64,000 bases of DNA from Eubacteriales bacterium (GCA_045531235.1 JAZSDQ010000098.1:8554-72553), one strand, 5' to 3'; shown: positions 6,947 through 24,152, counted from the first letter of the stretch. Notes: a model not told the origin generated them from the sequence alone. Translations and numbers: made by a program.

Positions 6947-8260
6947 TTACCTTTCCGGAACAAATTCTGAATAAATGGCCTGAATGGCTTTTTCGTAATC
7001 CTTTTCCTCCAGCGCAACGATAATGTTCAGTTCACTGGAGCCTTGGTCAATCATACGGATATTGATCTTCTCTCTTGCAAGAGCCGTAAAAAGACGGGCG
7101 GCAGTACCGGGAGAATTGATCATACCGCGGCCTACGACGGCGATGAGGCAAAGATCCTCTACCAGGTGGATACGGTCTGCCTGTACGGCAAGCTGAAGAT
7201 CCTGAATGATCTCATTTTCTCTGCCCTGGATCTCATCGCGACCGAGAACTACAGTCAAAGTATCAATGCCGCTGGGAAGATGCTCAAAGCTGATCTTCTT
7301 TTTCTCCAGCACCTCAAGAACGCGTCTGCCGAAGCCGAGCTCACTATTCATTTTTCCTTTTTCAATATAAATGGCAGCAAAGCCCTTTTTGCCTGCAAGA
7401 CCGGTAACGATGCTCTTGGATTTTTCCGCTTCCTGCACGATCATGGTGCCTGCATCTTCAGGAGCATTGGTATTGCGGATATTGATGGGGATACCTTCCT
7501 TGCGAACGGGGAAGATGGCATCCTCGTGAAGAACGGAGGCTCCCATATAAGAAAGCTCTCTTAATTCTCTGTAGGTCACACACTCAATAGGCTTGGGGTT
7601 CTTTACCAGGCGGGGATCTGCCATGAGAAGACCGGAAACATCGGTCCAGTTTTCATAAAGATCTGCCTTGGCAGCGCGGGCAACGAGAGAACCCGTGACA
7701 TCAGAGCCACCGCGGGAGAAGGTCAGGATCTCCCCCTGTTCCGTTGCGCCGTAAAAGCCGGGGAATACACCGCGGGTATTCTTTTTCAGAAGAGAAGCTA
7801 AAGCCACATTGGTCTGTTCTTCCAAAAGCTTTCCGTCTTCGCCGAAAAGAATTCCATTCGCTGCTTCCACAAAGGGGAAATCAAGATAGGCTGCCAGAAT
7901 ACGGGAGTTAAAATGCTCACCGCGGGAAGCGATATACGCTTCACTGGCGCCGTTTTTAATGTTTTCATAGAAAAGATCAAAATCTTTTTCCAAAGAAAAA
8001 TCAATTCCGAGATCGCGAATGATCTCATCAAAGCGCTCACGGATCTTCCCGAAGGGCTCGTCAAAATTCTCATTCCGACTTGCAAGCTTGTAGCAAGAAA
8101 GAAGAAGGTCCGTTACCTTAATATCGTCGCTGAAGCGTTTGCCCGGCGCAGAAGCTACCACGTAGCGGCGGCTCTTATCTGCACGGACGATTTCCGCAAC
8201 TTTTTCAAACTGCTTGGCGGATGCAAGACTGGTACCGCCGAATTTAATAACTTTTAACAT
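6947..8260 (-). CDS. Aspartate kinase
   Basis: 437 aa. The N-terminus is MLKVIKFGGTSLASA...VVASAPGK, and the C-terminal region looks like an ACT domain. Confidence 0.9.
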   Translation of the reverse strand: MLKVIKFGGTSLASAKQFEKVAEIVRADKSRRYVVASAPGKRFSDDIKVTDLLLSCYKLASRNENFDEPFGKIRERFDEIIRDLGIDFSLEKDFDLFYENIKNGASEAYIASRGEHFNSRILAAYLDFPFVEAANGILFGEDGKLLEEQTNVALASLLKKNTRGVFPGFYGATEQGEILTFSRGGSDVTGSLVARAAKADLYENWTDVSGLLMADPRLVKNPKPIECVTYRELRELSYMGASVLHEDAIFPVRKEGIPINIRNTNAPEDAGTMIVQEAEKSKSIVTGLAGKKGFAAIYIEKGKMNSELGFGRRVLEVLEKKKISFEHLPSGIDTLTVVLGRDEIQGRENEIIQDLQLAVQADRIHLVEDLCLIAVVGRGMINSPGTAARLFTALAREKINIRMIDQGSSELNIIVALEEKDYEKAIQAIYSEFVPER

Positions 8261-8276
8261 ACATACTCCTTGGAAC

Positions 8277-9164
8277 TTATTTGATAATATTCAGTTTCTT
8301 CATTTCTCCGAGAAGACGCTTTTCATTGGTTTCTTCCATAGGAGTCAGAGGCATTCGAAGATAATTTTCGCCGTATCCCATGGCGGCCATAGCGGCCTTC
8401 ACGGGAATGGGGTTAACCTCGCAGAACAAATCGTGAATAAGGGGAAGATAGCGCAGCTGCATTTCCTTTGCTTCTTCGATCTTACCTGCAAAGAACTTTT
8501 TGCACATAGCATCGGTATCGCCGGGGATCACGTTGGAAAGAACGGAAATAACACCCTTTCCGCCGAGAGAAAGCACGGGGAGGATCTGATCGTCATTACC
8601 GGAATAAATATCAATACGGTCACCGCAAAGAGCAGCAACGGTAGCCACCTGAGAAAGGTCGCCGCTTGCTTCTTTCAGACCGACGATCCTGGGATGATCT
8701 GCCAGAACGTTCACCGTTTCGGGCTTAAGGTTGCAGCCGGTACGGGAAGGAACGTTATACATAATAATAGGCTTATCCACGGCATCGGCAATTTCGGTAA
8801 AGTGACGGATAAGACCCTTCTGGGTTGCCTTATTGTAATAAGGAGTTACCACGAGAAGCGCATCCGCACCTGCTTCACAAGCGTGCTGAGACAGTTCAAC
8901 GGCGTACTTGGTATCGTTGGAGCCGGTACCGGCAATCACGGGAACTCTGCCCTTCGCCTGCTTTACAGCAAAAGAAATAACGTCTCTATGTTCTTCATCG
9001 CTAAGGGTACTTCCTTCACCGGTGGTACCTACGATTACAAGAGCGGAAATGCCGTCCTCGATCTGAAATTCAATGAGCTTTGCAAGGTTTTCATAGTCAA
9101 CGCCCTTTTCTGTCATAGGAGTAACGAGAGCAGTGGCAGCGCCTTCAAAAATAGTGTTTTTCAT
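8277..9164 (-). CDS. dapA: 4-hydroxy-tetrahydrodipicolinate synthase
   Basis: 295 aa. Motifs: GAATALVTPM, VVGTTGEGSTLS and YNVPSRTG. Confidence 0.92.
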   Translation of the reverse strand: MKNTIFEGAATALVTPMTEKGVDYENLAKLIEFQIEDGISALVIVGTTGEGSTLSDEEHRDVISFAVKQAKGRVPVIAGTGSNDTKYAVELSQHACEAGADALLVVTPYYNKATQKGLIRHFTEIADAVDKPIIMYNVPSRTGCNLKPETVNVLADHPRIVGLKEASGDLSQVATVAALCGDRIDIYSGNDDQILPVLSLGGKGVISVLSNVIPGDTDAMCKKFFAGKIEEAKEMQLRYLPLIHDLFCEVNPIPVKAAMAAMGYGENYLRMPLTPMEETNEKRLLGEMKKLNIIK

Positions 9165-9185
9165 AATAAATCCTTTCTAAACATT

Positions 9186-9415
9186 GAAAAATCGGCAGCC
9201 GCAATGCGGCTACCGACAAAACACCAAAATGAATCCCCTTTGGGAAGTCGGATAGCACTCCGCATTGCTGCGACAACAACAGAGATCTTCTCCCTGCTGC
9301 CAGCCAAGCCTTCCGCCGAGAAAAGCTCACTTCGGCACCCACCCCTTTCCCCCTCTCAGCTTCGGCAAGCCATTTCGATCCGGGTACTCTTGATGCAGTG
9401 CGCCTCTATCAAGGT
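9186..9415 (-). promoter_or_regulatory. Lysine riboswitch (L-box) with terminator, leader of dapA / aspartate kinase / lysA
   Basis: The minus strand reads GATAGAGGCGCACTGCATCAAGAGTACCC...GAAAGGGGTGGGTGCCGAAGTGAG...CTGGCAGCAGGG...GTTGTCGCAG. This matches the L-box core blocks AGAGGNGC, AGAGTA, GCCGAAG and CTGTC-like. It ends in a long hairpin (TCGGTAGCCGC/GCGGCTGCCGA) followed by TTTTT. Confidence 0.8.
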
Positions 9416-9562
9416 TGAGAATACCATATTTTCAGCCTATTGTCAAGGTTTTCGACAAAATTTGCCCTAGGTTGGGAAGGAGCAAAAGAAGCCTTTCTAT
9501 CTTTACAATATGCTCTTTCTCTCCCAAAGGGAACCGAGCTATGGGATTTTTTGAAAAAAGCA

Positions 9563-9591
9563 TTGCATTTTTTCCAAAGCTATGATACAAT
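9563..9591 (+). promoter_or_regulatory. Putative sigma-A promoter of tRNA-Ala
   Basis: TTGCAT, a 17-nt spacer, then TACAAT, which ends 13 nt before the mature tRNA 5' end. Confidence 0.5.
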
Positions 9592-9604
9592 ATTTCTGTC
9601 CCTC

Positions 9605-9680
9605 GGGGCATTAGCGCAGTTGGGAGCGCACCACACTGGCAGTGTGGGGGTCAGGGGTTCAAGTCCCCTATGCTCCACCA
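9605..9680 (+). tRNA. tRNA-Ala (anticodon GGC), CCA encoded
   Basis: Manual cloverleaf fold. Acceptor GGGGCAT/ATGCTCC includes the G3:U70 alanine identity pair. D arm is GCGC-AGTTGGGA-GCGC. Anticodon arm is CCACA-CTGGCAG-TGTGG. T arm is AGGGG-TTCAAGT-CCCCT. The 3' end is ACCA. Confidence 0.93.
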
Positions 9681-9681
9681 G

Positions 9682-9711
9682 AAAAAAGCACTTGCAACGG
9701 CAAGTGCTTTT
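9682..9711 (+). terminator. Terminator hairpin, copy 1 of 3
   Basis: AAAAAAGCACTTGC-AACG-GCAAGTGCTTTT. An identical 30-mer recurs at 10096-10125. A 2-mismatch copy (loop AATA) lies at 12470-12499. Confidence 0.85.
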
Positions 9712-9832
9712 TTCAATGAAATCCGCCTCAATGACGGACGGATGGATTTCATTTCATCGTTAATTTCCATGAATAGGGCAATATCGCAGATTGTTGATTC
9801 CGTTCATCAACGCTGCCAAGGAGAATACCATT

Positions 9833-10090
9833 ATGAAATTTTCTTTAAAATCCATCTTGCGTTGGGCAGGCGTTTTTCTTTTGTGTTTTTTGGTTCTTTA
9901 CGTCACCGTCTTCTTCGGCGGATGGAAGCTTTTTGAAAGCGGCGACCCCATTCTGATAGAACTCGGCGCTGCGTTTATTCTATCCATCTTCGTATTTGCC
10001 GCAAACGAAGTAATCACAAATCTTGAAAAAAGAATCAAAGCACTGGAAGAACGGATAAAAAAGTTAGAAGACAGTTCTTTTGATAAATAG
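9833..10090 (+). CDS. Small two-TM protein with a C-terminal coiled-coil tail, unknown function
   Basis: I prefer the start at MKFSLKSILRWAG, which follows an AAGGAG site. The track ORF starts at 9791. There are two hydrophobic helices, then LEKRIKALEERIKKLE. The gene ends at terminator copy 2. Confidence 0.45.
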   Translation: MKFSLKSILRWAGVFLLCFLVLYVTVFFGGWKLFESGDPILIELGAAFILSIFVFAANEVITNLEKRIKALEERIKKLEDSSFDK

Positions 10091-10128
10091 CAAACAAAAA
10101 AGCACTTGCAACGGCAAGTGCTTTTCTT

Positions 10129-10317
10129 TTATTTTTTGAGGGTATCCTCTTTGCCGCGGTAGACGATGAATTTGCAGAAAAGGTATTCCAGAATGAAATT
10201 GGAAAGCATGGTCAGAGCGAGAATGATAAAATCGTTCCAGCCTGCCTTTTCCGCCAGCTCGTCTTGGGAAAGACCGTGCTTTGATCTGAGTTCCAATATA
10301 ATATCTTTCGTTTCCAT
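10129..10317 (-). pseudogene. Chimeric ORF: 24 codons of an XRE-type HTH regulator fused to the last 38 codons of gtrA
   Basis: METKDIILELRSKHGLSQDELAEK is joined to AGWNDFIILALTMLSNFILEYLFCKFIVYRGKEDTLKK. The second half is DNA-identical to the 3' end of the intact gtrA at 12503-12630. The junction falls in a shared GCGGAAAAG (A-E-K). Confidence 0.8.
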
Positions 10318-10428
10318 CGTGCCACCGCCTTTGTTTACTGTAACTCTATTATAGCAAACCCCGGCAGGAATAACAAGCAACGTGCTGTTGCTATGGATTG
10401 TGTGTATATCAGTTCGTTGCTTGCGATT

Positions 10429-10488
10429 TCAGTGGTGCGCCTGCGAATCAAAATTGCCGTAATAAAACTCTTCAATGAATTTAGCCAT
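10429..10488 (-). pseudogene. Truncated small ORF (MAKFIEEFYYGNFDSQAHH*), probable remnant of a mobile-element gene
   Basis: It has a strong AAAGGAGG site and an ATG but stops after 19 codons. It lies directly upstream of the HTH fragment, arranged like a two-gene regulatory pair. The family assignment is from memory only. Confidence 0.3.
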
Positions 10489-10578
10489 ATCGTTTTACCT
10501 CCTTTGCCTATATTGTAGCAAGGGAGGGTTATTTTGACGAATGTGTGGAATGAAAATCAGCACATTCGTTGTTTTGTC

Positions 10579-10607
10579 TTGAACAATTTCTTATTAAGTG
10601 TTATAAT
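10579..10607 (+). promoter_or_regulatory. Putative promoter of the DUF488 cassette
   Basis: TTGAAC (10579-10584), a 17-nt spacer, then TATAAT (10602-10607). A second TATAAT lies 7 nt downstream. Confidence 0.55.
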
Positions 10608-10632
10608 GTGCGTATAATAGTCCAAAAAAGAG

Positions 10633-11265
10633 GTGACAATTATTAACTCCATTTATACGATCGGTTATACTGCCTTTTCAATAAATGAATTTATTGAAAC
10701 AATAAAGCATTATAATATTAATTGCGTGATTGATGTTCGCAGTTCACCTTTTTCAAATTATTACAGCGATTACAACAAGGATGCTTTAGAACGCACCTTA
10801 AAACAACATAATATTTTGTATCGAAACTACGCGAATGAATTTGGAGCACGCCAAACAAACTCAGATTTTTATTCTGGGGATATAGTTGATTTCGATAAAT
10901 TCATTAAATCGACGCAGTTTTTACAAGGTGTTTCTAAAATAAAAAAAGGAATTGAATGCGGATATAATTTTGTTCTGATGTGCGCGGAAAAAGATCCTAT
11001 CAAATGTCATCGTTCTATTATGTTAGGCAAGGGATTTTCTAATAGCAGTTTTGAGGTAAAACATATTATATCTAAAAATGAATTAGAATCACAAAAGGAA
11101 TTGGAACAACGATTGCTAGAAATGTATCATCAAGATAGATTTCAGTTGACTCTGTTTGGTGAAGATCGCTCCGAATCCGATCTCCTTGCCGATGCGTATA
11201 TGAAACAGAATTTAGCAATAGGATATAACAGAAACACTAAAATAGAACAGGAAGATATCGAATGA
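10633..11265 (+). CDS. DUF488 family protein, long form with a C-terminal helical extension
   Basis: 210 aa. Motifs: IYTIGYTAFS, VIDVRSSPFS, ILYRNYANEFG and LMCAEKDPIKCHRSIM, which together match the DUF488 pattern. The track start is a GTG abutting the AGAGG site, so the exact start is uncertain. Confidence 0.7.
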   Translation: MTIINSIYTIGYTAFSINEFIETIKHYNINCVIDVRSSPFSNYYSDYNKDALERTLKQHNILYRNYANEFGARQTNSDFYSGDIVDFDKFIKSTQFLQGVSKIKKGIECGYNFVLMCAEKDPIKCHRSIMLGKGFSNSSFEVKHIISKNELESQKELEQRLLEMYHQDRFQLTLFGEDRSESDLLADAYMKQNLAIGYNRNTKIEQEDIE

Positions 11266-11702
11266 TTTTTACAATCGGATTTACACAAAAAAACGCCGAA
11301 AACTTTTTTGGATTACTAACCCAAAACAAAATTGATTTATTAATAGATATTAGACTTAATAACACGTCTCAATTGGCAGGATTTGCGAAATTTCCGGATA
11401 TACAGTTTTTCTTAAAAAGAATTTGTCAGGTGAGTTATGTGCATGATACTGTTCTTTCACCAACCGAAGATTTGCTTAAAAATTACAAAAGCAAGAAAAT
11501 CTCTTGGCTTGAATATGAAGAGGTTTTCGAAAGCATCATGTTAGAACGTAATATTAATAATTATATTCAAGAGCGATATGCCAACTTATTTGATAAAAAC
11601 ATCTGCCTTTTGTGTAGCGAACCAACTGAAAAACAATGCCATAGGCGGTTAGTGGCAGAGCATTTTAAAAAAGTGTTGAAAATGGATGTAGTACATTTAT
11701 AA
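11262..11702 (+). CDS. DUF488 family protein, short divergent paralog
   Basis: 146 aa. Motifs: IFTIGFTQKN, LIDIRLNNTS and LLCSEPTEKQCHRRLV. Its start overlaps the upstream stop in ATGA at 11262-11265. Confidence 0.7.
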   Translation: MIFTIGFTQKNAENFFGLLTQNKIDLLIDIRLNNTSQLAGFAKFPDIQFFLKRICQVSYVHDTVLSPTEDLLKNYKSKKISWLEYEEVFESIMLERNINNYIQERYANLFDKNICLLCSEPTEKQCHRRLVAEHFKKVLKMDVVHL

Positions 11703-11715
11703 AGGAAGTTTTATC

Positions 11716-12321
11716 ATGGTTAAACGTGTAATAGTGTTAACGTTGTCTTTGAAATTTGATGGATATTGTATTGCGGCCTATGATGCAGAAAATAATACGA
11801 TGATTAGATTAGTAAAGGATTCTTCAAGAGAGAACGGTATTCCAAGACCATATGCTCGCGGGATTCACTTGCTGGATGAAGTAGATATTAATATAGTTGA
11901 ATATTGTCCAAAAGAACATCAAACAGAAAATGTAGTTATTGATTTGCATTATGGCTTGAGAAAAACCGGAAGAAGAGCTGATATTGAGAATATTTATAAC
12001 AACTTGCAAAAGCACTCTCGTATCTTTGGTGACAACAACTACAAAGTTTTAAGTGTTGACCACCTTGACCATTCCCTTGAGATAATTAAATTTGAAAACA
12101 TGCATATACAAACAAGGATTATCAATGAAAAAAACAAGACAAAGGCAACTTTTGTTTGTAATTCTCAATTTCATTTAGATTATAGTGTTACTGATGCTCG
12201 TTTTTTTGATGAGGATGTGTCAATACCTTTTGGATATTCAATAATAAGTTTGCCTGCAACTGATAACTTTACGGAACAATATGGATATTTTAAATACGTG
12301 TCTGCGGTATATCCAAACTAA
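11716..12321 (+). CDS. Hypothetical 201-aa protein, no motif I can assign
   Basis: MVKRVIVLTLSLKFDGYCIAAYDAENNTMIRLV... It has an AAGGAAG site and starts 13 nt after the preceding stop. It looks soluble and predominantly beta-type by eye. Confidence 0.6.
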   Translation: MVKRVIVLTLSLKFDGYCIAAYDAENNTMIRLVKDSSRENGIPRPYARGIHLLDEVDINIVEYCPKEHQTENVVIDLHYGLRKTGRRADIENIYNNLQKHSRIFGDNNYKVLSVDHLDHSLEIIKFENMHIQTRIINEKNKTKATFVCNSQFHLDYSVTDARFFDEDVSIPFGYSIISLPATDNFTEQYGYFKYVSAVYPN

Positions 12322-12340
12322 ACATTGTTTTCAATCAAAC

Positions 12341-12386
12341 AACACCGCTTGCTGAGTGATTTCAGCAAGCGGTGTTATCTTTTTTC
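12341..12386 (+). terminator. Strong terminator of the cassette
   Basis: 15-bp perfect stem AACACCGCTTGCTGA / TCAGCAAGCGGTGTT with a 6-nt loop, followed by ATCTTTTTT. Confidence 0.85.
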
Positions 12387-12406
12387 GGGGGTATAATTTT
12401 GCGTGT

Positions 12407-12468
12407 GTTGGGAGCGCACCACACTGGCAATGTGGGGGTCAGGGGTTCAAGTCCCCTATGCTCCACCA
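12407..12468 (+). pseudogene. Partial tRNA-Ala copy (nt 15-76 only), non-functional
   Basis: It is identical to 9619-9680 except for one base in the anticodon loop (G to A). It lacks the 5' acceptor strand and the 5' half of the D stem. Confidence 0.9.
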
Positions 12469-12630
12469 GAAAAAAGCACTTGCAATAGCAAGTGCTTTTC
12501 TTTTATTTTTTCAGGGTATCCTCTTTGCCGCGGTAGACGATGAATTTGCAGAAAAGGTATTCCAGAATGAAATTGGAAAGCATGGTCAGAGCGAGAATGA
12601 TAAAATCGTTCCAGCCTGCCTTTTCCGCCA
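12407..12630. repeat. Right copy of the duplicated segment X (partial tRNA-Ala, terminator, gtrA 3' end)
   Basis: See the left copy at 9619-10256. There are four mismatches in total, and the 384-bp insert is absent. Confidence 0.9.
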
Positions 12631-12904
12631 CGGTACCGAGCCAGGTGGAAAGAGGGGTAAAGACAAGATAAAAGCCGAAAACCTTTGCCATTGCCACGGG
12701 AACGTTAGCGGCAGACTGAAAGGTATAGCGTCGATTGAGAGTGAAATTCCAAAGAATGGACAAGGTAAGGGAAATAAGATACGGGATCCAATAATCCTTG
12801 ATAAAAATTTCAAGAAGGGCAAAGGAAGCTACCTGAATGATTCCTGCCGACACGGAGAACAACGTAAATTTTAAAGCTCTCAGCAATTCTTTTTTATCCT
12901 TCAT
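12503..12904 (-). CDS. GtrA family membrane protein (glycolipid translocation-type)
   Basis: The start is trimmed to MKDKKELLRALKFTLFSVSAGIIQ. The protein has four TM helices and the NFxLNRxxTF motif (NFTLNRRYTF). Confidence 0.75.
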   Translation of the reverse strand: MKDKKELLRALKFTLFSVSAGIIQVASFALLEIFIKDYWIPYLISLTLSILWNFTLNRRYTFQSAANVPVAMAKVFGFYLVFTPLSTWLGTVAEKAGWNDFIILALTMLSNFILEYLFCKFIVYRGKEDTLKK

Positions 12905-12914
12905 TTTTCTTTCC

Positions 12915-14039
12915 TCAGATCTCTTTTTTATAGCAGCGACGGCGCTTATGCTGACGCTTTTCAAATTGATTCCACATACTGTGCACGGCGCCGTTGGTTT
13001 CCAGCTGAGGGCCGGTTTCACAATATTTTACTCCGTTTTCAATCAGCTTTGTCAAAAGGGTATCAATGATAATGGCAGGTACGCCCTGGTTCTGATATTT
13101 CGGCTCTACCGCCACAAAATACATTTCCAAGGTATCGTTTTTACCCTTCAAAGCGCGGAGCATTCTTACGATACCAAAGGGAAAGAGCTTTCCGTCAGAC
13201 TTTTTCTGCGCTTTTGCCAGAGAAGGCACCAAAACGCCGAAGCCGACGATTTTTCCTTCTTTGGTCTTGACCGAGCAGATATAATCCAGATTGACCAGGG
13301 GAACGTAGCCGTCAATAACATTTTGAATAACGGCAGGGGTCAGCGGTACCGTGCCGTAAAGCTTGGAAAACGCCACATCGATCAGGCCGAAGGCTTCAAA
13401 GGCTTCTTTATAAAGGGTCTTTCTATCCTTATATATTACAACTTGAAAATCGTGCTTTTTCTGCACGTGCTTTGCAATACGCGCAATGCGGGGATCATTT
13501 TTCTCGGGAACGCGAATCAGGTACTCGATCCAGTCAATATCCTTTTTCAGTCCCAGTTTTTCCATATGCACAAGATAGTAGGGATCGTTATAAAAGGTGA
13601 TGGCCATATTGAATTCATCAAAGCCTTCCACAAGCATTCCCTCGTGGTCCATATCCGTAAAGCCGATGGGCCCCATAATCTCCGTATAGCCCTTTTCCTT
13701 GCCCCAGGCTACCACAGCATCAAAGAGGGCTTGGGATACTTCATAATCGTCTATAAAATCAAAGCGGGTAAAGCGCATGGCGTTTTTCTCCCACTTTTTA
13801 TTGTAGGCGTGGTTGATCAGCCCCGCAATACGACCGACGATCTTCTCATCCTTATAAGCAAGAAAGAGCTTGGTTTCGCAAAATTCATAGGCGGGATTTT
13901 TCCCTTCGGTGAAGGTATCCATTTCGTCACTTGCCAAAAACGGAACGAAATTGGGGTTATCTCCAAAAAGCTTATTGGGAAATTCCACCCACTTCTTTTT
14001 TTCTTTTTCGCTGAGTACCTCTTTTACAGTTACACTCAT
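12915..14039 (-). CDS. GNAT-like acyltransferase family protein (about 370-aa class)
   Basis: 374 aa. The C-terminal block YFVAVEPKYQNQGVPAIIID resembles the GNAT acetyl-CoA binding motif. The assignment is by resemblance only. Confidence 0.5.
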   Translation of the reverse strand: MSVTVKEVLSEKEKKKWVEFPNKLFGDNPNFVPFLASDEMDTFTEGKNPAYEFCETKLFLAYKDEKIVGRIAGLINHAYNKKWEKNAMRFTRFDFIDDYEVSQALFDAVVAWGKEKGYTEIMGPIGFTDMDHEGMLVEGFDEFNMAITFYNDPYYLVHMEKLGLKKDIDWIEYLIRVPEKNDPRIARIAKHVQKKHDFQVVIYKDRKTLYKEAFEAFGLIDVAFSKLYGTVPLTPAVIQNVIDGYVPLVNLDYICSVKTKEGKIVGFGVLVPSLAKAQKKSDGKLFPFGIVRMLRALKGKNDTLEMYFVAVEPKYQNQGVPAIIIDTLLTKLIENGVKYCETGPQLETNGAVHSMWNQFEKRQHKRRRCYKKEI

Positions 14040-14066
14040 AATCTTTTCCTCGTTATAAAATTTGCC

Positions 14067-14504
14067 TTATTTTTCGGCAACTCGCTCCAGTCTTTCACTG
14101 ATAATGGATAAGCTGCGGTAAAAAGCAATTCTTTCTTCTTCCGTCAGGCCGTCATTCAGCGTTTCCAGAACACCGTCCACCTTTTCCAGAATCGTTTTCC
14201 CCATCTCTTTCCCCTTTTCCGTAAGAATGAGAGGGTATTTATAGCGTTTTATATTTTTTCCGTCAGAAACAAGATATCCGTTCTTTTCCAAAAAGCCTAC
14301 GGCCCGGGAAACGGTCGCCTTATCTTCCTCGCAGCGCTCACACAGCTCTGTCAGGGTAAGACCGCGGGAAAGGTGCAAATAATAAAGGCAGGAAATGTGG
14401 GCGCTTCTCAGGCCATACTCCGCCATTTCGCGGTTTTCAATTTTTCTGATGCTACGGGCGATGCGATGGATCAAGATGGTAAACATTTCAAAGCGCTGTT
14501 TCAT
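14067..14504 (-). CDS. MarR family transcriptional regulator
   Basis: The start is trimmed to MKQRFEMF, which follows a GGGGAGGG site. The winged-HTH region is LTLTELCERCEEDKATVSRAVGFLEKNGYL. Confidence 0.8.
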   Translation of the reverse strand: MKQRFEMFTILIHRIARSIRKIENREMAEYGLRSAHISCLYYLHLSRGLTLTELCERCEEDKATVSRAVGFLEKNGYLVSDGKNIKRYKYPLILTEKGKEMGKTILEKVDGVLETLNDGLTEEERIAFYRSLSIISERLERVAEK

Positions 14505-22121: not shown

Positions 22122-22151
22122 AAAAAGACCAAGCCTTGGCTTGGTCTTTTT
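22122..22151. terminator. Bidirectional terminator between uppP and groEL
   Basis: AAAAAGACCAAGCC-TTGG-CTTGGTCTTTTT. Confidence 0.8.
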
Positions 22152-22162
22152 TCTTTATTCAA

Positions 22163-24152
<1,990 letters not shown>

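What the first reader, a model, noticed from the sequence alone, without database searches (positions are those of the whole stretch)
9605..12630. Duplicated tRNA-Ala / terminator / gtrA-3' segment bracketing foreign DNA: the footprint of single-crossover or homology-facilitated illegitimate recombination, not integrase att sites
**Seen in the sequence.** 9619-9711 (tRNA-Ala nt 15-76 plus the terminator hairpin) recurs at 12407-12499 with 3 mismatches. 10096-10256 (the same terminator plus the last 38 codons and stop of gtrA) recurs at 12470-12630 with 3 mismatches. So one contiguous segment X (partial tRNA, terminator, gtrA 3' end) is present twice in direct orientation around a 2,150-bp AT-rich insert (10257-12406).

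The left copy completes the tRNA. The right copy completes gtrA. Each gene therefore stays functional once.

The inner ends are illegitimate junctions. The gtrA fragment is fused in frame to an XRE HTH gene fragment through a shared GCGGAAAAG. The tRNA fragment starts abruptly at nt 15.

No integrase, recombinase or transposase ORF is present.

**Inference.** This topology is what Campbell-type insertion of a circular molecule carrying X plus cargo would produce. Homology-facilitated illegitimate recombination after DNA uptake would produce it too. The SNPs and the 384-bp indel between the two X copies suggest that the incoming X came from a different strain.
Basis: partly seen in the sequence, partly recalled or inferred. 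Interest (0 to 1): 0.6.

Follow-up and report, generated by a model that had tools for sequence, protein, structure and literature searches.

The report
Defence cassette captured beside tRNA-Ala
A 2.15-kb AT-rich piece of a mobile element, carrying a three-gene candidate anti-phage system, was spliced between tRNA-Ala and gtrA in an uncultured gut Clostridia genome through two short chance sequence matches rather than by an integrase, duplicating 224 bp of the target; this is a clean natural example of a known process, not a new one.

Summary
A 224-bp segment X (tRNA-Ala nt 15-76, terminator hairpin, last 131 nt of gtrA) occurs twice in direct orientation around 2,150 bp of 32.5% GC DNA, against 46% for the window.

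Congeneric contigs at about 85% nucleotide identity carry the empty site (dapA, tRNA-Ala, terminator, gtrA), and both flanks are housekeeping genes with no recombinase.

The insert is a complete PADLOC candidate defence system, PDC-M45 (DUF488, DUF488-N3a, DuOB). A contig that is 99% identical shows its native context: XRE repressor, TnpV, DUF6809, the cassette, then a DUF6472 gene.

Both inner junctions fall inside native cargo features at microhomologies:
- J1: 12 nt, CCTTTTCCGCCA, shared by gtrA and the XRE gene.
- J2: 8 nt, GTTGGGAG, shared by the tRNA D-loop and the ribosome-binding site of the next cargo gene.

No native cargo context contains tRNA sequence, so these are illegitimate junctions and not att sites.

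A nested 384-bp insertion (a small membrane-protein ORF), flanked by an exact 30-bp duplication of the hairpin, sits in the left copy.

It remains unresolved whether the structure arose in one step (template switch or end joining) or in steps involving DNA from another strain of the same species (homology-facilitated illegitimate recombination, or Campbell-type re-integration). The source is a single assembly, so checking against reads is still needed.

The parts
9605..9680 (+). Intact tRNA-Ala(GGC), the only tRNA in the window
   Evidence: ARAGORN; Rfam RF00005 at 64.1 bits
9619..9711 (+). Left copy of X, part 1: tRNA nt 15-76 plus hairpin T1 (9682-9711, loop AACG)
9712..10095 (+). Nested 384-bp insertion (GC 0.40) bounded by an exact 30-bp duplication of the hairpin (T1 and T2). 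It is absent from the tRNA-gtrA spacer of all relatives.
9833..10090 (+). Small ORF of 85 aa, a predicted membrane/coiled-coil protein with no Pfam family. It belongs to a widespread chromosomal family of Clostridia (best non-self hit 71-77% aa).
10096..10256 (+). Left copy of X, part 2: hairpin T2 (10096-10125) plus the 3' end of gtrA (minus strand; stop codon 10129-10131)
10245..10256 (.). Junction J1 microhomology CCTTTTCCGCCA, shared by gtrA and the XRE gene of the cargo (11 of 12 nt in the nearest donor relative, L090)
10129..10317 (-). Chimeric 62-aa ORF: 24 N-terminal codons of an XRE-type HTH repressor fused in frame to the last 38 codons of gtrA. A promoter-like site lies at 10376-10348.
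10257..12406 (.). Foreign segment F (2,150 bp). Positions 10437-12417 are 99.0% identical to Logan contig L090, and 10258-10435 are 90% identical. The window lacks L090 868-1451 (TnpV and most of DUF6809).
10429..10488 (-). Truncated DUF6809 gene remnant (MAKFIEEFYYGNFDSQAHH*), next to the internal deletion junction J3 at about 10436/10437
10579..10607 (+). Promoter-like site of the cassette (TTGAAC, 17-nt spacer, TATAAT, with an extended TG)
10633..11265 (+). DUF488 protein, 210 aa (PADLOC PDC-M45B, E = 5e-47)
11262..11702 (+). DUF488-N3a protein, 146 aa (PDC-M45C, E = 2e-52)
11716..12321 (+). DuOB (dual OB) protein, 201 aa (PDC-M45A, E = 2.5e-12; Pfam PF22557, E = 5e-23)
12341..12376 (+). 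The cassette's own terminator hairpin (16-bp stem)
12407..12414 (.). Junction J2 microhomology GTTGGGAG. It equals tRNA nt 15-22 and also the ribosome-binding-site region of the DUF6472 gene that follows the cassette in its native contexts.
12407..12630 (+). Right copy of X, uninterrupted: tRNA fragment nt 15-76 (12407-12468, A at position 38), hairpin T3 (12470-12499, loop AATA) and the gtrA 3' end. It matches the arrangement of the empty allele in relatives.
12503..12904 (-). Intact gtrA (133 aa, GtrA_DPMS_TM)

Best explanation
**What it is.** The host is an uncultured Clostridia bacterium whose nearest relatives are ruminant-gut metagenome-assembled genomes (MAGs). A 2.15-kb fragment of a TnpV-type mobile element has been captured between tRNA-Ala(GGC) and gtrA. 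The fragment carries a self-contained operon with its own promoter and terminator: DUF488, DUF488-N3a and DuOB, which together form the PADLOC candidate defence system PDC-M45.

**What is shown.**
- Capture was by two microhomology-mediated illegitimate joins, not by site-specific recombination.
- J1 joins gtrA to codon 24 of the element's XRE repressor gene at a 12-nt match.
- J2 joins the ribosome-binding site of the element's next gene to tRNA nt 15 at an 8-nt match.
- The chromosomal breakpoint of J2 lies 224 bp upstream of that of J1, so this interval now flanks the insert on both sides. One intact tRNA and one intact gtrA remain.

**What is inferred.** I put the origin by two illegitimate joins at about 0.85. 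The joins formed in one of two ways:
- In one replication-linked event: a template switch, or end joining between sister chromatids, that re-entered the chromosome 224 bp behind its exit point.
- In two steps: illegitimate integration of the circular element at J1, followed by homology-facilitated illegitimate recombination with wild-type DNA. The second step restored gtrA and deleted the element backbone through J2.

The four SNPs and the nested 384-bp insertion that distinguish the two X copies most likely reflect homologous exchange with another strain of the same species (about 0.55). That exchange could include loop-out and Campbell-type re-integration of an X+F circle, with the crossover in the 117-bp identical run. 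The alternative is decay in place (about 0.3).

The cassette probably serves the host as an anti-phage module. This is inferred from family membership only.
For: - **Empty site in relatives.** L081, L084, L086 and L087 have GNAT, gtrA, one terminator, tRNA-Ala and dapA with a 555-bp spacer. Window 8001-9713 and 12407-14495 map onto them with a 96-bp overlap that equals the duplicated tRNA/terminator part.
- **Native cargo context.** L090 is 99.0% identical over 10437-12417 and carries a full XRE/Zn-ribbon gene, TnpV, DUF6809 and the three-gene cassette. L090, L091 and L092 all continue past GTTGGGAG into ATGGCATTCAAG, the start of a DUF6472 gene.
- **J1.** Window, gtrA and L090 share CCTTTTC(C/T)GCCA and then diverge pairwise. 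By my own arithmetic, (k+1)/4^k, a random junction would show 8 or more nt of overlap about 1.4e-4 of the time.
- **No tRNA in the cargo's native contexts.** ARAGORN; Rfam at E<=10.
- **No recombinase nearby.** Flanks within about 10 kb are housekeeping genes: lysA, aspartokinase, dapA, GNAT, MarR, glutamate dehydrogenase, ThrRS.
- **Foreign composition.** GC is 0.325 in the cassette against 0.464 for the window.
- **Cargo identity.** PDC-M45 B, C and A are all hit.
- **The cassette travels as a unit in mobile DNA.** It lies next to a 623-aa large serine recombinase in L098, between recombinase fragments in L099-L105, and between terminase and portal genes in a viral contig, L097. TnpV homologues occur on plasmids and in streptococcal phages.
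Against: - Only one assembly carries this structure: the 100%-identical GtrA, small-ORF and DuOB proteins all come from one 88,637-nt NCBI contig. Read support could not be checked.
- No genome of the same species was found. The closest relatives are about 84-87% identical in nucleotide sequence, so neither the recipient allele nor the donor allele of X is known.
- L090 is not the exact donor: it is 90% identical left of 10436 and has one mismatch inside the J1 microhomology.
- The sub-mechanism is not discriminated. Both polarisable SNPs are derived in the non-functional copy, which weakens the second-strain reading.
- Competence or another route of DNA entry is unknown for this lineage.
- Defence activity of PDC-M45 is untested, and no paper in the library mentions it.
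Confidence: 0.75

Rival explanations
1. This is an integrase-mediated, tRNA-targeted genomic island, or a decayed cis-mobilisable remnant of one. The two tRNA 3' segments would be attL and attR, and the integrase would have been lost or would act in trans.
For: The insert lies next to a tRNA gene and is flanked by direct repeats that include the tRNA 3' end. The cargo derives from mobile-element DNA, and relatives of the cassette sit beside a large serine recombinase.
Against: - The repeat runs 162 bp beyond the tRNA into the terminator and gtrA.
- Identity begins in the D-loop at an 8-nt match with the cargo's own flank.
- The cargo's native contexts carry no tRNA sequence, and the wider resemblance of that flank to the tRNA 5' half is at background level.
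- The other junction lies inside two coding sequences.
- No integrase lies in the insert or within about 10 kb, and both flanks are syntenic with empty-site relatives.
Confidence: 0.04
2. This is an assembly artefact. The contig would be a chimeric path through a strain mixture, or a free 2.4-2.8-kb circle (X plus F) collapsed into the chromosome through the shared X segment.
For: The structure is known from a single assembly, probably a MAG. A chromosome plus a free X+F circle would give the same linear sequence if the assembler crossed over inside an identical run of X. Logan contigs of the cassette break near its ends.
Against: - J1 and J2 share only 8-12 nt between partners, far below any assembly k-mer, so the junction sequences must exist in reads. 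This is my reasoning and was not tested.
- The identical runs between the copies are at most 117 bp, and the SNPs tag each copy. Reads of 150 nt or large k-mers would phase them.
- A circle of X plus F has no replication gene, so it could not persist on its own.
Confidence: 0.1
3. A single complex replicative event in one cell produced everything with no second strain involved. [quoted passage not shown] Switches 1 and 2 gave the small-ORF insertion with the 30-bp hairpin duplication. Switches 3 and 4 gave the F insertion with the 224-bp duplication. The point differences arose from error-prone synthesis or later decay.
For: - There are two nested insertions of the same unusual topology, new DNA flanked by a direct duplication of the target, within 100 bp of each other at a hairpin/tRNA site.
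- T1 and T2 are identical.
- There is microhomology at J1 and J2.
- Both polarisable SNPs are derived in the non-functional copy.
- The MMBIR model predicts complex events with microhomology junctions and duplications (PMC2621351, found).
Against: - Four differences in 224 bp, including two adjacent changes in the T3 loop, are many for a structure whose cargo is still 99% identical to a relative in another sample.
- The native source and junctions of the small-ORF segment are unknown: it has no second copy in the window or in any locus fetched.
- MMBIR is documented mainly in eukaryotes and E. coli. This point rests on my own knowledge.
Confidence: 0.25

Closest known systems
Homology-facilitated illegitimate recombination (HFIR) and double illegitimate recombination during DNA uptake. 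These were described for Acinetobacter baylyi and Streptococcus pneumoniae; I cite them from my own knowledge (de Vries & Wackernagel 2002; Prudhomme et al. 2002; Hulter & Wackernagel 2008), not from papers read here.
   Same: Foreign DNA is joined at 3-12 nt microhomologies. A homologous segment lies next to the foreign DNA. No recombinase is needed. Junctions fall at arbitrary positions inside genes.
   Different: Laboratory HFIR events usually delete recipient DNA. Here 224 bp are duplicated and both flanking genes survive. Natural competence is unknown for this Clostridia lineage. The event is inferred from one genome and was not observed.
Microhomology-mediated break-induced replication / fork stalling and template switching (Hastings et al. 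2009, PMC2621351)
   Same: Templated insertion with microhomology at both junctions, duplication of the sequence behind the re-entry point, and possible multi-switch complexity (the nested small-ORF insertion).
   Different: The template here would be a foreign mobile element rather than the same genome. The replicative origin cannot be tested from sequence.
Campbell-type (single-crossover) integration of a circular molecule carrying a chromosomal segment, as with suicide plasmids or aberrantly excised (specialised transducing) prophages
   Same: The product topology is identical: homologous segment, cargo, homologous segment in direct orientation, with each interrupted gene reconstituted once. 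The product can loop out again.
   Different: The circle would need two pre-existing illegitimate junctions, so this can be a propagation step but not the origin. No replication or transfer function lies on the 2.8-kb unit.
tRNA-linked genomic or defence islands integrated by tyrosine or serine recombinases
   Same: The location next to a tRNA gene, the low-GC cargo, and a candidate defence system as cargo.
   Different: There is no integrase. The repeats extend beyond the tRNA. The element's native form has no attP-like tRNA segment. Both junctions sit at microhomologies inside unrelated features.
PADLOC candidate defence system PDC-M45 (DUF488 / DUF488-N3a / DuOB)
   Same: All three component HMMs hit, in one operon, with conserved gene sizes (210, 146 and about 200 aa) across every context seen.
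   Different: None found at sequence level. Activity has not been tested anywhere I could find.

Membership tests
Integrase-mediated tRNA-gene island (att-flanked) | An integrase or recombinase gene inside or next to the island | tested here: not met
   Pfam on all ORFs of the insert and on flanking ORFs to about 10 kb shows none. The flanks are syntenic with empty-site relatives.
Integrase-mediated tRNA-gene island (att-flanked) | Direct repeats confined to an att core within or at the 3' end of the tRNA | tested here: not met
   The repeat is 224 bp and includes the terminator and 131 nt of gtrA.
Integrase-mediated tRNA-gene island (att-flanked) | The element in its native form carries the tRNA 3' segment (attP) | tested here: not met
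   L090-L094 share only GTTGGGAG and then continue into a DUF6472 gene. No tRNA is found by ARAGORN or Rfam, and the extended similarity is at background level.
Illegitimate (microhomology-mediated) recombination / HFIR | New junctions lie at short sequence identities between otherwise unrelated partners | tested here: met
   J1 is 12 nt (11 of 12 in L090) and J2 is 8 nt.
Illegitimate (microhomology-mediated) recombination / HFIR | Junctions interrupt functional features of both partners at arbitrary positions | tested here: met
   J1 lies inside the gtrA and XRE coding sequences. J2 lies inside the tRNA D-loop and the ribosome-binding site of the next cargo gene.
Illegitimate (microhomology-mediated) recombination / HFIR | A homologous anchor from incoming DNA of a related strain | tested here: inconclusive
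   The X copies differ by 4 SNPs and a nested insertion. No genome of the same species is available, and the polarised SNPs fit decay in place as well.
Illegitimate (microhomology-mediated) recombination / HFIR | Dependence on DNA uptake and RecA | not testable with these tools
   This needs genetics in the organism, which is uncultured.
MMBIR / template switching | A templated insertion whose re-entry point lies behind the exit point, giving a flanking duplication, with microhomology at each switch | tested here: met
   The topology and both microhomologies are shown. The replicative origin itself cannot be tested here.
PADLOC PDC-M45 candidate defence system | Components A, B and C are encoded together | tested here: met
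   PDC-M45B at 5.4e-47, M45C at 2.1e-52 and M45A at 2.5e-12, on three adjacent genes. The same trio is present in L090-L092 and L097-L105.
PADLOC PDC-M45 candidate defence system | Protection against phage | not testable with these tools
   No literature was found.
Tn4451-like / TnpV-bearing mobilisable element (as the donor) | TnpV and a large serine recombinase linked to the cargo | tested here: inconclusive
   TnpV and DUF6809 adjoin the 99%-identical cassette in L090. A serine recombinase adjoins a 76%-identical cassette in L098. Neither is present in the window, where only remnants of XRE and DUF6809 remain.

The most novel reading that the evidence does not exclude
The tRNA-Ala/terminator site may be a hotspot for integrase-independent capture by serial microhomology-mediated template switching. 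On this reading, one complex replicative event copied first a 384-bp chromosomal segment and then 2.15 kb of a transiently present mobile element, each time re-entering behind the exit point and producing the 30-bp and 224-bp duplications. The resulting homology-flanked cassette could then spread within the species by loop-out and Campbell re-integration. Defence islands next to tRNA genes would thereby have a route of growth that needs no recombinase.
Probability: 0.2. Interest if true: 0.6.

Novelty: new member of a known kind. Interest (0 to 1): 0.35.

Why it matters
Defence systems and other accessory cassettes cluster next to tRNA genes, and this is usually credited to integrases.

In this natural case all three reference states can be compared: the empty site, the filled site and the donor context. 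Together they show that a complete candidate defence operon was fixed beside a tRNA purely through 8-12 nt microhomologies, at no cost to either flanking gene.

The case also warns against reading every tRNA-fragment direct repeat as an att site. In addition, it gives a concrete genomic context for the uncharacterised DUF488/DuOB (PDC-M45) module, which turns up on a TnpV element, on serine-recombinase elements and as a moron (an accessory gene insert) in a phage.

Tried and rejected
- **Exact-protein look-ups** of the window's GtrA, DapA and DuOB, and of the 100%-identical P0001, returned nothing. The source contig could not be retrieved, and the listing of cluster members gave no accession.
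- **GTDB representative genomes.** The best DapA match is 79% aa. Three loci have tRNA-Ala near dapA, but none has gtrA there, so they were no use as an empty-site test.
- **Closest GtrA relatives.** P0003 (95% aa) and P0002 (94% aa) are still only about 84-86% identical in nucleotide sequence. One has gtrA in a different neighbourhood, and the other contig ends in the hairpin.
- **Collection scans.** Metagenome scans for the tRNA-terminator junction and for the start of the XRE gene found 0 hits. A viral scan for the latter also found 0.
- **DNA search of the insert** against plasmids and phages found nothing relevant.
- **The idea that the cargo's native flank is a decayed tRNA-Ala 5' half**, which would have made J2 a recombination between diverged homologous sequences, was rejected. 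ARAGORN and Rfam find nothing. The local alignment score is 11, and 9.5% of background windows that share an 8-mer reach 12 or more.
- **The idea that the hairpin T is a dispersed repeat** was rejected. It occurs only at this locus in the window and once per relative.
- **The idea that the small ORF is native to this spacer** is not supported. It is absent from all relatives, and a homologue sits in an unrelated array of small genes.
- **A tandem duplication followed by deletion, starting from a nearby resident copy of F,** was rejected. F is unique in the 64-kb window.
- **Literature searches** for DuOB, DUF488 and PDC-M45 gave nothing usable.

Full report
**Observation**

The repeat structure is exactly as described. 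The repeat finder gives 9619-9711 = 12407-12499 (93 nt, 97%) and 10096-10256 = 12470-12630 (161 nt, 98%). The two right-hand matches overlap by 30 nt. The right copy is therefore one uninterrupted 224-bp segment X: tRNA-Ala nt 15-76, a 30-nt terminator hairpin, and the last 131 nt of gtrA.

The left copy is the same segment split by 384 bp of new sequence plus a second copy of the hairpin (T1 9682-9711, T2 10096-10125). The copies differ at four positions:
- 9642G/12430A, tRNA position 38.
- CG/TA in the hairpin loop. T1 and T2 are identical to each other, and T3 differs.
- 10138G/12512C, a synonymous Leu codon in gtrA.

The window has a single tRNA, tRNA-Ala(GGC) at 9605-9680 (Rfam 64 bits). 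The tRNA 3' end occurs twice, against none in shuffles. The right-hand gtrA is full length at 133 aa. The left gtrA fragment is fused in frame to 24 codons of an XRE-type gene. GC falls to 0.325 in 10507-12406 against 0.464 for the window.

**Host and empty site**

DapA, the GNAT protein and GtrA place the window in uncultured Clostridia. The nearest relatives are ruminant-gut MAGs, and the best GTDB representative has 79% DapA identity. The 100%-identical proteins all come from one 88,637-nt NCBI contig, so the structure is known from a single assembly.

Contigs encoding GtrA at 92% identity (L081-L088, about 84-87% nucleotide identity) show the order GNAT, gtrA, one hairpin, tRNA-Ala(GGC), dapA, aspartokinase, lysA, with a 555-bp gtrA-dapA spacer. 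Window 8001-9713 and 12407-14495 map onto them with a 96-bp overlap, which is the duplicated tRNA/hairpin part. The sequences confirm a single copy of X with no small ORF and no insert.

All ORFs within about 10 kb on either side are housekeeping genes: PHP, amidohydrolase, TetR, lysA, aspartokinase, dapA, GNAT, MarR, glutamate dehydrogenase and ThrRS. None is a recombinase.

**Cargo**

The three ORFs at 10633-11265, 11262-11702 and 11716-12321 are DUF488, DUF488-N3a and DuOB in Pfam. They hit all three components of the PADLOC candidate defence system PDC-M45: B at 5e-47, C at 2e-52 and A at 2.5e-12. They have a good promoter-like site (10579-10607) and their own 16-bp-stem terminator (12341-12376).

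The trio is conserved as a unit, with gene sizes of 210, 146 and about 200 aa. It appears in several kinds of mobile DNA:
- Beside a 623-aa large serine recombinase inside an element (L098).
- Between leftover fragments of such a recombinase gene (L099-L105).
- Between the terminase large-subunit and portal genes of a viral contig (L097), which is a typical moron position.

I found no literature on its activity.

**Donor context and junctions**

The DuOB protein is 100% identical in two Logan contigs. L090 matches window 10437-12417 at 99.0% and 10258-10435 at 90%. It carries, upstream of the cassette, a full-length XRE/Zn-ribbon repressor (220 aa), TnpV and DUF6809. TnpV homologues lie on plasmids and streptococcal phages.

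Relative to L090, the window lacks 584 bp (L090 868-1451). What remains is 24 codons of XRE and 19 codons of DUF6809.

On the left, the window, the intact gtrA and L090 share CCTTTTC(C/T)GCCA at 10245-10256. Beyond it, the window follows gtrA on one side and the XRE gene on the other.

On the right, L090, L091 and the 82%-identical L092-L094 all run through GCGTG..GTTGGGAG and then continue into ATGGCATTCAAG, the start of a DUF6472 gene. The window switches after GTTGGGAG into tRNA nt 23 onward.

Both inner junctions therefore cut native cargo features at 12-nt and 8-nt microhomologies. By my own arithmetic, (k+1)/4^k, a random junction would show 8 or more nt of overlap about 1.4e-4 of the time.

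I tested whether the cargo flank is a decayed tRNA, which would have suggested an att-like origin. ARAGORN and Rfam find nothing. The local alignment score of 11 is unremarkable among background windows that share an 8-mer with the tRNA.

**Mechanism**

*Shown.* The insert was joined to the chromosome by two illegitimate, microhomology-mediated joins. The chromosomal breakpoint of the right join (tRNA nt 15) lies 224 bp upstream of that of the left join (gtrA). That interval is therefore duplicated, and one intact tRNA and one intact gtrA remain.

*Inferred.* How the two joins arose is open. Three routes give this product.
1. **One concerted event.** This would be a template switch of the MMBIR type (PMC2621351) or end joining between sister chromatids, using the mobile element as template or filler and re-entering 224 bp behind the exit point.
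2. **Illegitimate integration of the circular element at J1.** This would disrupt gtrA. It would be followed by homology-facilitated illegitimate recombination with wild-type DNA, which restored gtrA and removed the element backbone through J2.
3. **Loop-out of X plus F in a strain that already had the structure, then Campbell-type re-integration in another strain.** This can propagate the structure but cannot create it, because the circle already needs both junctions.

Four differences in 224 bp, together with a cargo still 99% identical to L090, fit divergence between strains better than decay in place. This favours routes 2 or 3 for the present copy (about 0.55).

Against that, all relatives have G at tRNA position 38 and C at the gtrA site. 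Both polarisable differences are thus derived in the non-functional copy, as expected for decay or error-prone synthesis. With only two sites this is weak evidence.

**The nested insertion**

The 384-bp segment (GC 0.40) encodes an 85-aa membrane/coiled-coil protein of a widespread chromosomal family in Clostridia (best non-self hit 71-77% aa). In one homologue's contig it sits in an unrelated array of small genes. It is absent from every relative's tRNA-gtrA spacer and from all other loci fetched. It has no second copy in the window.

It is bounded by an exact 30-bp duplication of the hairpin, and that hairpin occurs only at this locus. Its topology, new DNA flanked by a duplicated target, matches that of the large insertion. 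I could not determine whether it was part of the same event, a later event, or a strain polymorphism.

**Comparison with known systems**

The structure works like HFIR or double illegitimate recombination, or like a template-switch insertion. It has the same product topology as a Campbell integration. It fails every tested criterion for an integrase-mediated tRNA island: there is no integrase, the repeats are not confined to the tRNA, and the element has no attP-like segment. The cargo meets the sequence definition of PDC-M45.

**Caveats**

- The structure rests on a single assembly. A chromosome plus a free X+F circle would give the same linear sequence if an assembler crossed within an identical run (117 bp at most).
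- J1 and J2 themselves cannot be k-mer artefacts, because the partners share only 8-12 nt. This is reasoning and was not tested on reads.
- No genome of the same species and no exact donor were found.

**Verdict**

This is a well-resolved natural example of a known process, so it counts as a new member of a known kind and is of moderate interest.

Noticed in passing
window 9682-10125: There is a nested insertion of 384 bp (an 85-aa small membrane-protein ORF at 9833-10090), flanked by an exact 30-bp direct duplication of the whole terminator hairpin. Its topology matches the large insertion, and its source is unknown.
   Followed up: partly
window 10129-10317 (minus strand): An in-frame chimeric ORF of 62 aa joins 24 aa of the XRE HTH N-terminus to the last 38 aa (a transmembrane helix) of GtrA. 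A promoter-like site lies at 10376-10348, so it may be expressed. It is probably a by-product with no function.
   Followed up: no
L097 8913-10615 (IMG/VR viral contig): The same three-gene DUF488 / DUF488-N3a / DuOB module (33% aa identity for DuOB) sits between the terminase large-subunit and portal genes of a tailed phage. This is a moron-like position.
   Followed up: partly
L099-L105 (e.g. L099 8352-8477 and 10652-10735): A 76%-identical copy of the cassette is flanked on both sides by short fragments of a large serine recombinase gene (residues 100-141 upstream, 596-623 downstream). In L098 the recombinase is intact. The cassette therefore outlives decay of its carrier element repeatedly.
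   Followed up: partly
L089 644-2932: The closest GtrA relative by protein (95%) has gtrA followed by two AP_endonuc_2 genes rather than the terminator, tRNA-Ala and dapA. The tRNA-gtrA adjacency is therefore not universal in the genus.
   Followed up: no
window 12388-12468: There is a sub-threshold Rfam tmRNA match (27.7 bits against a gathering score of 47). It is simply the tRNA 3' fragment preceded by a G-rich stretch of the cargo, not a tmRNA.
   Followed up: yes
L090 3433-3451 and L091 2154-2172: Two Logan contigs from different samples end at the same base, 19 nt into the DUF6472 gene downstream of the cassette. This suggests a recurrent branch point (variable junction) there in natural populations.
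   Followed up: no
window 22136-24145 (+): A 669-aa ORF has no Pfam family at E<=1e-4. It lies outside the finding.
   Followed up: no
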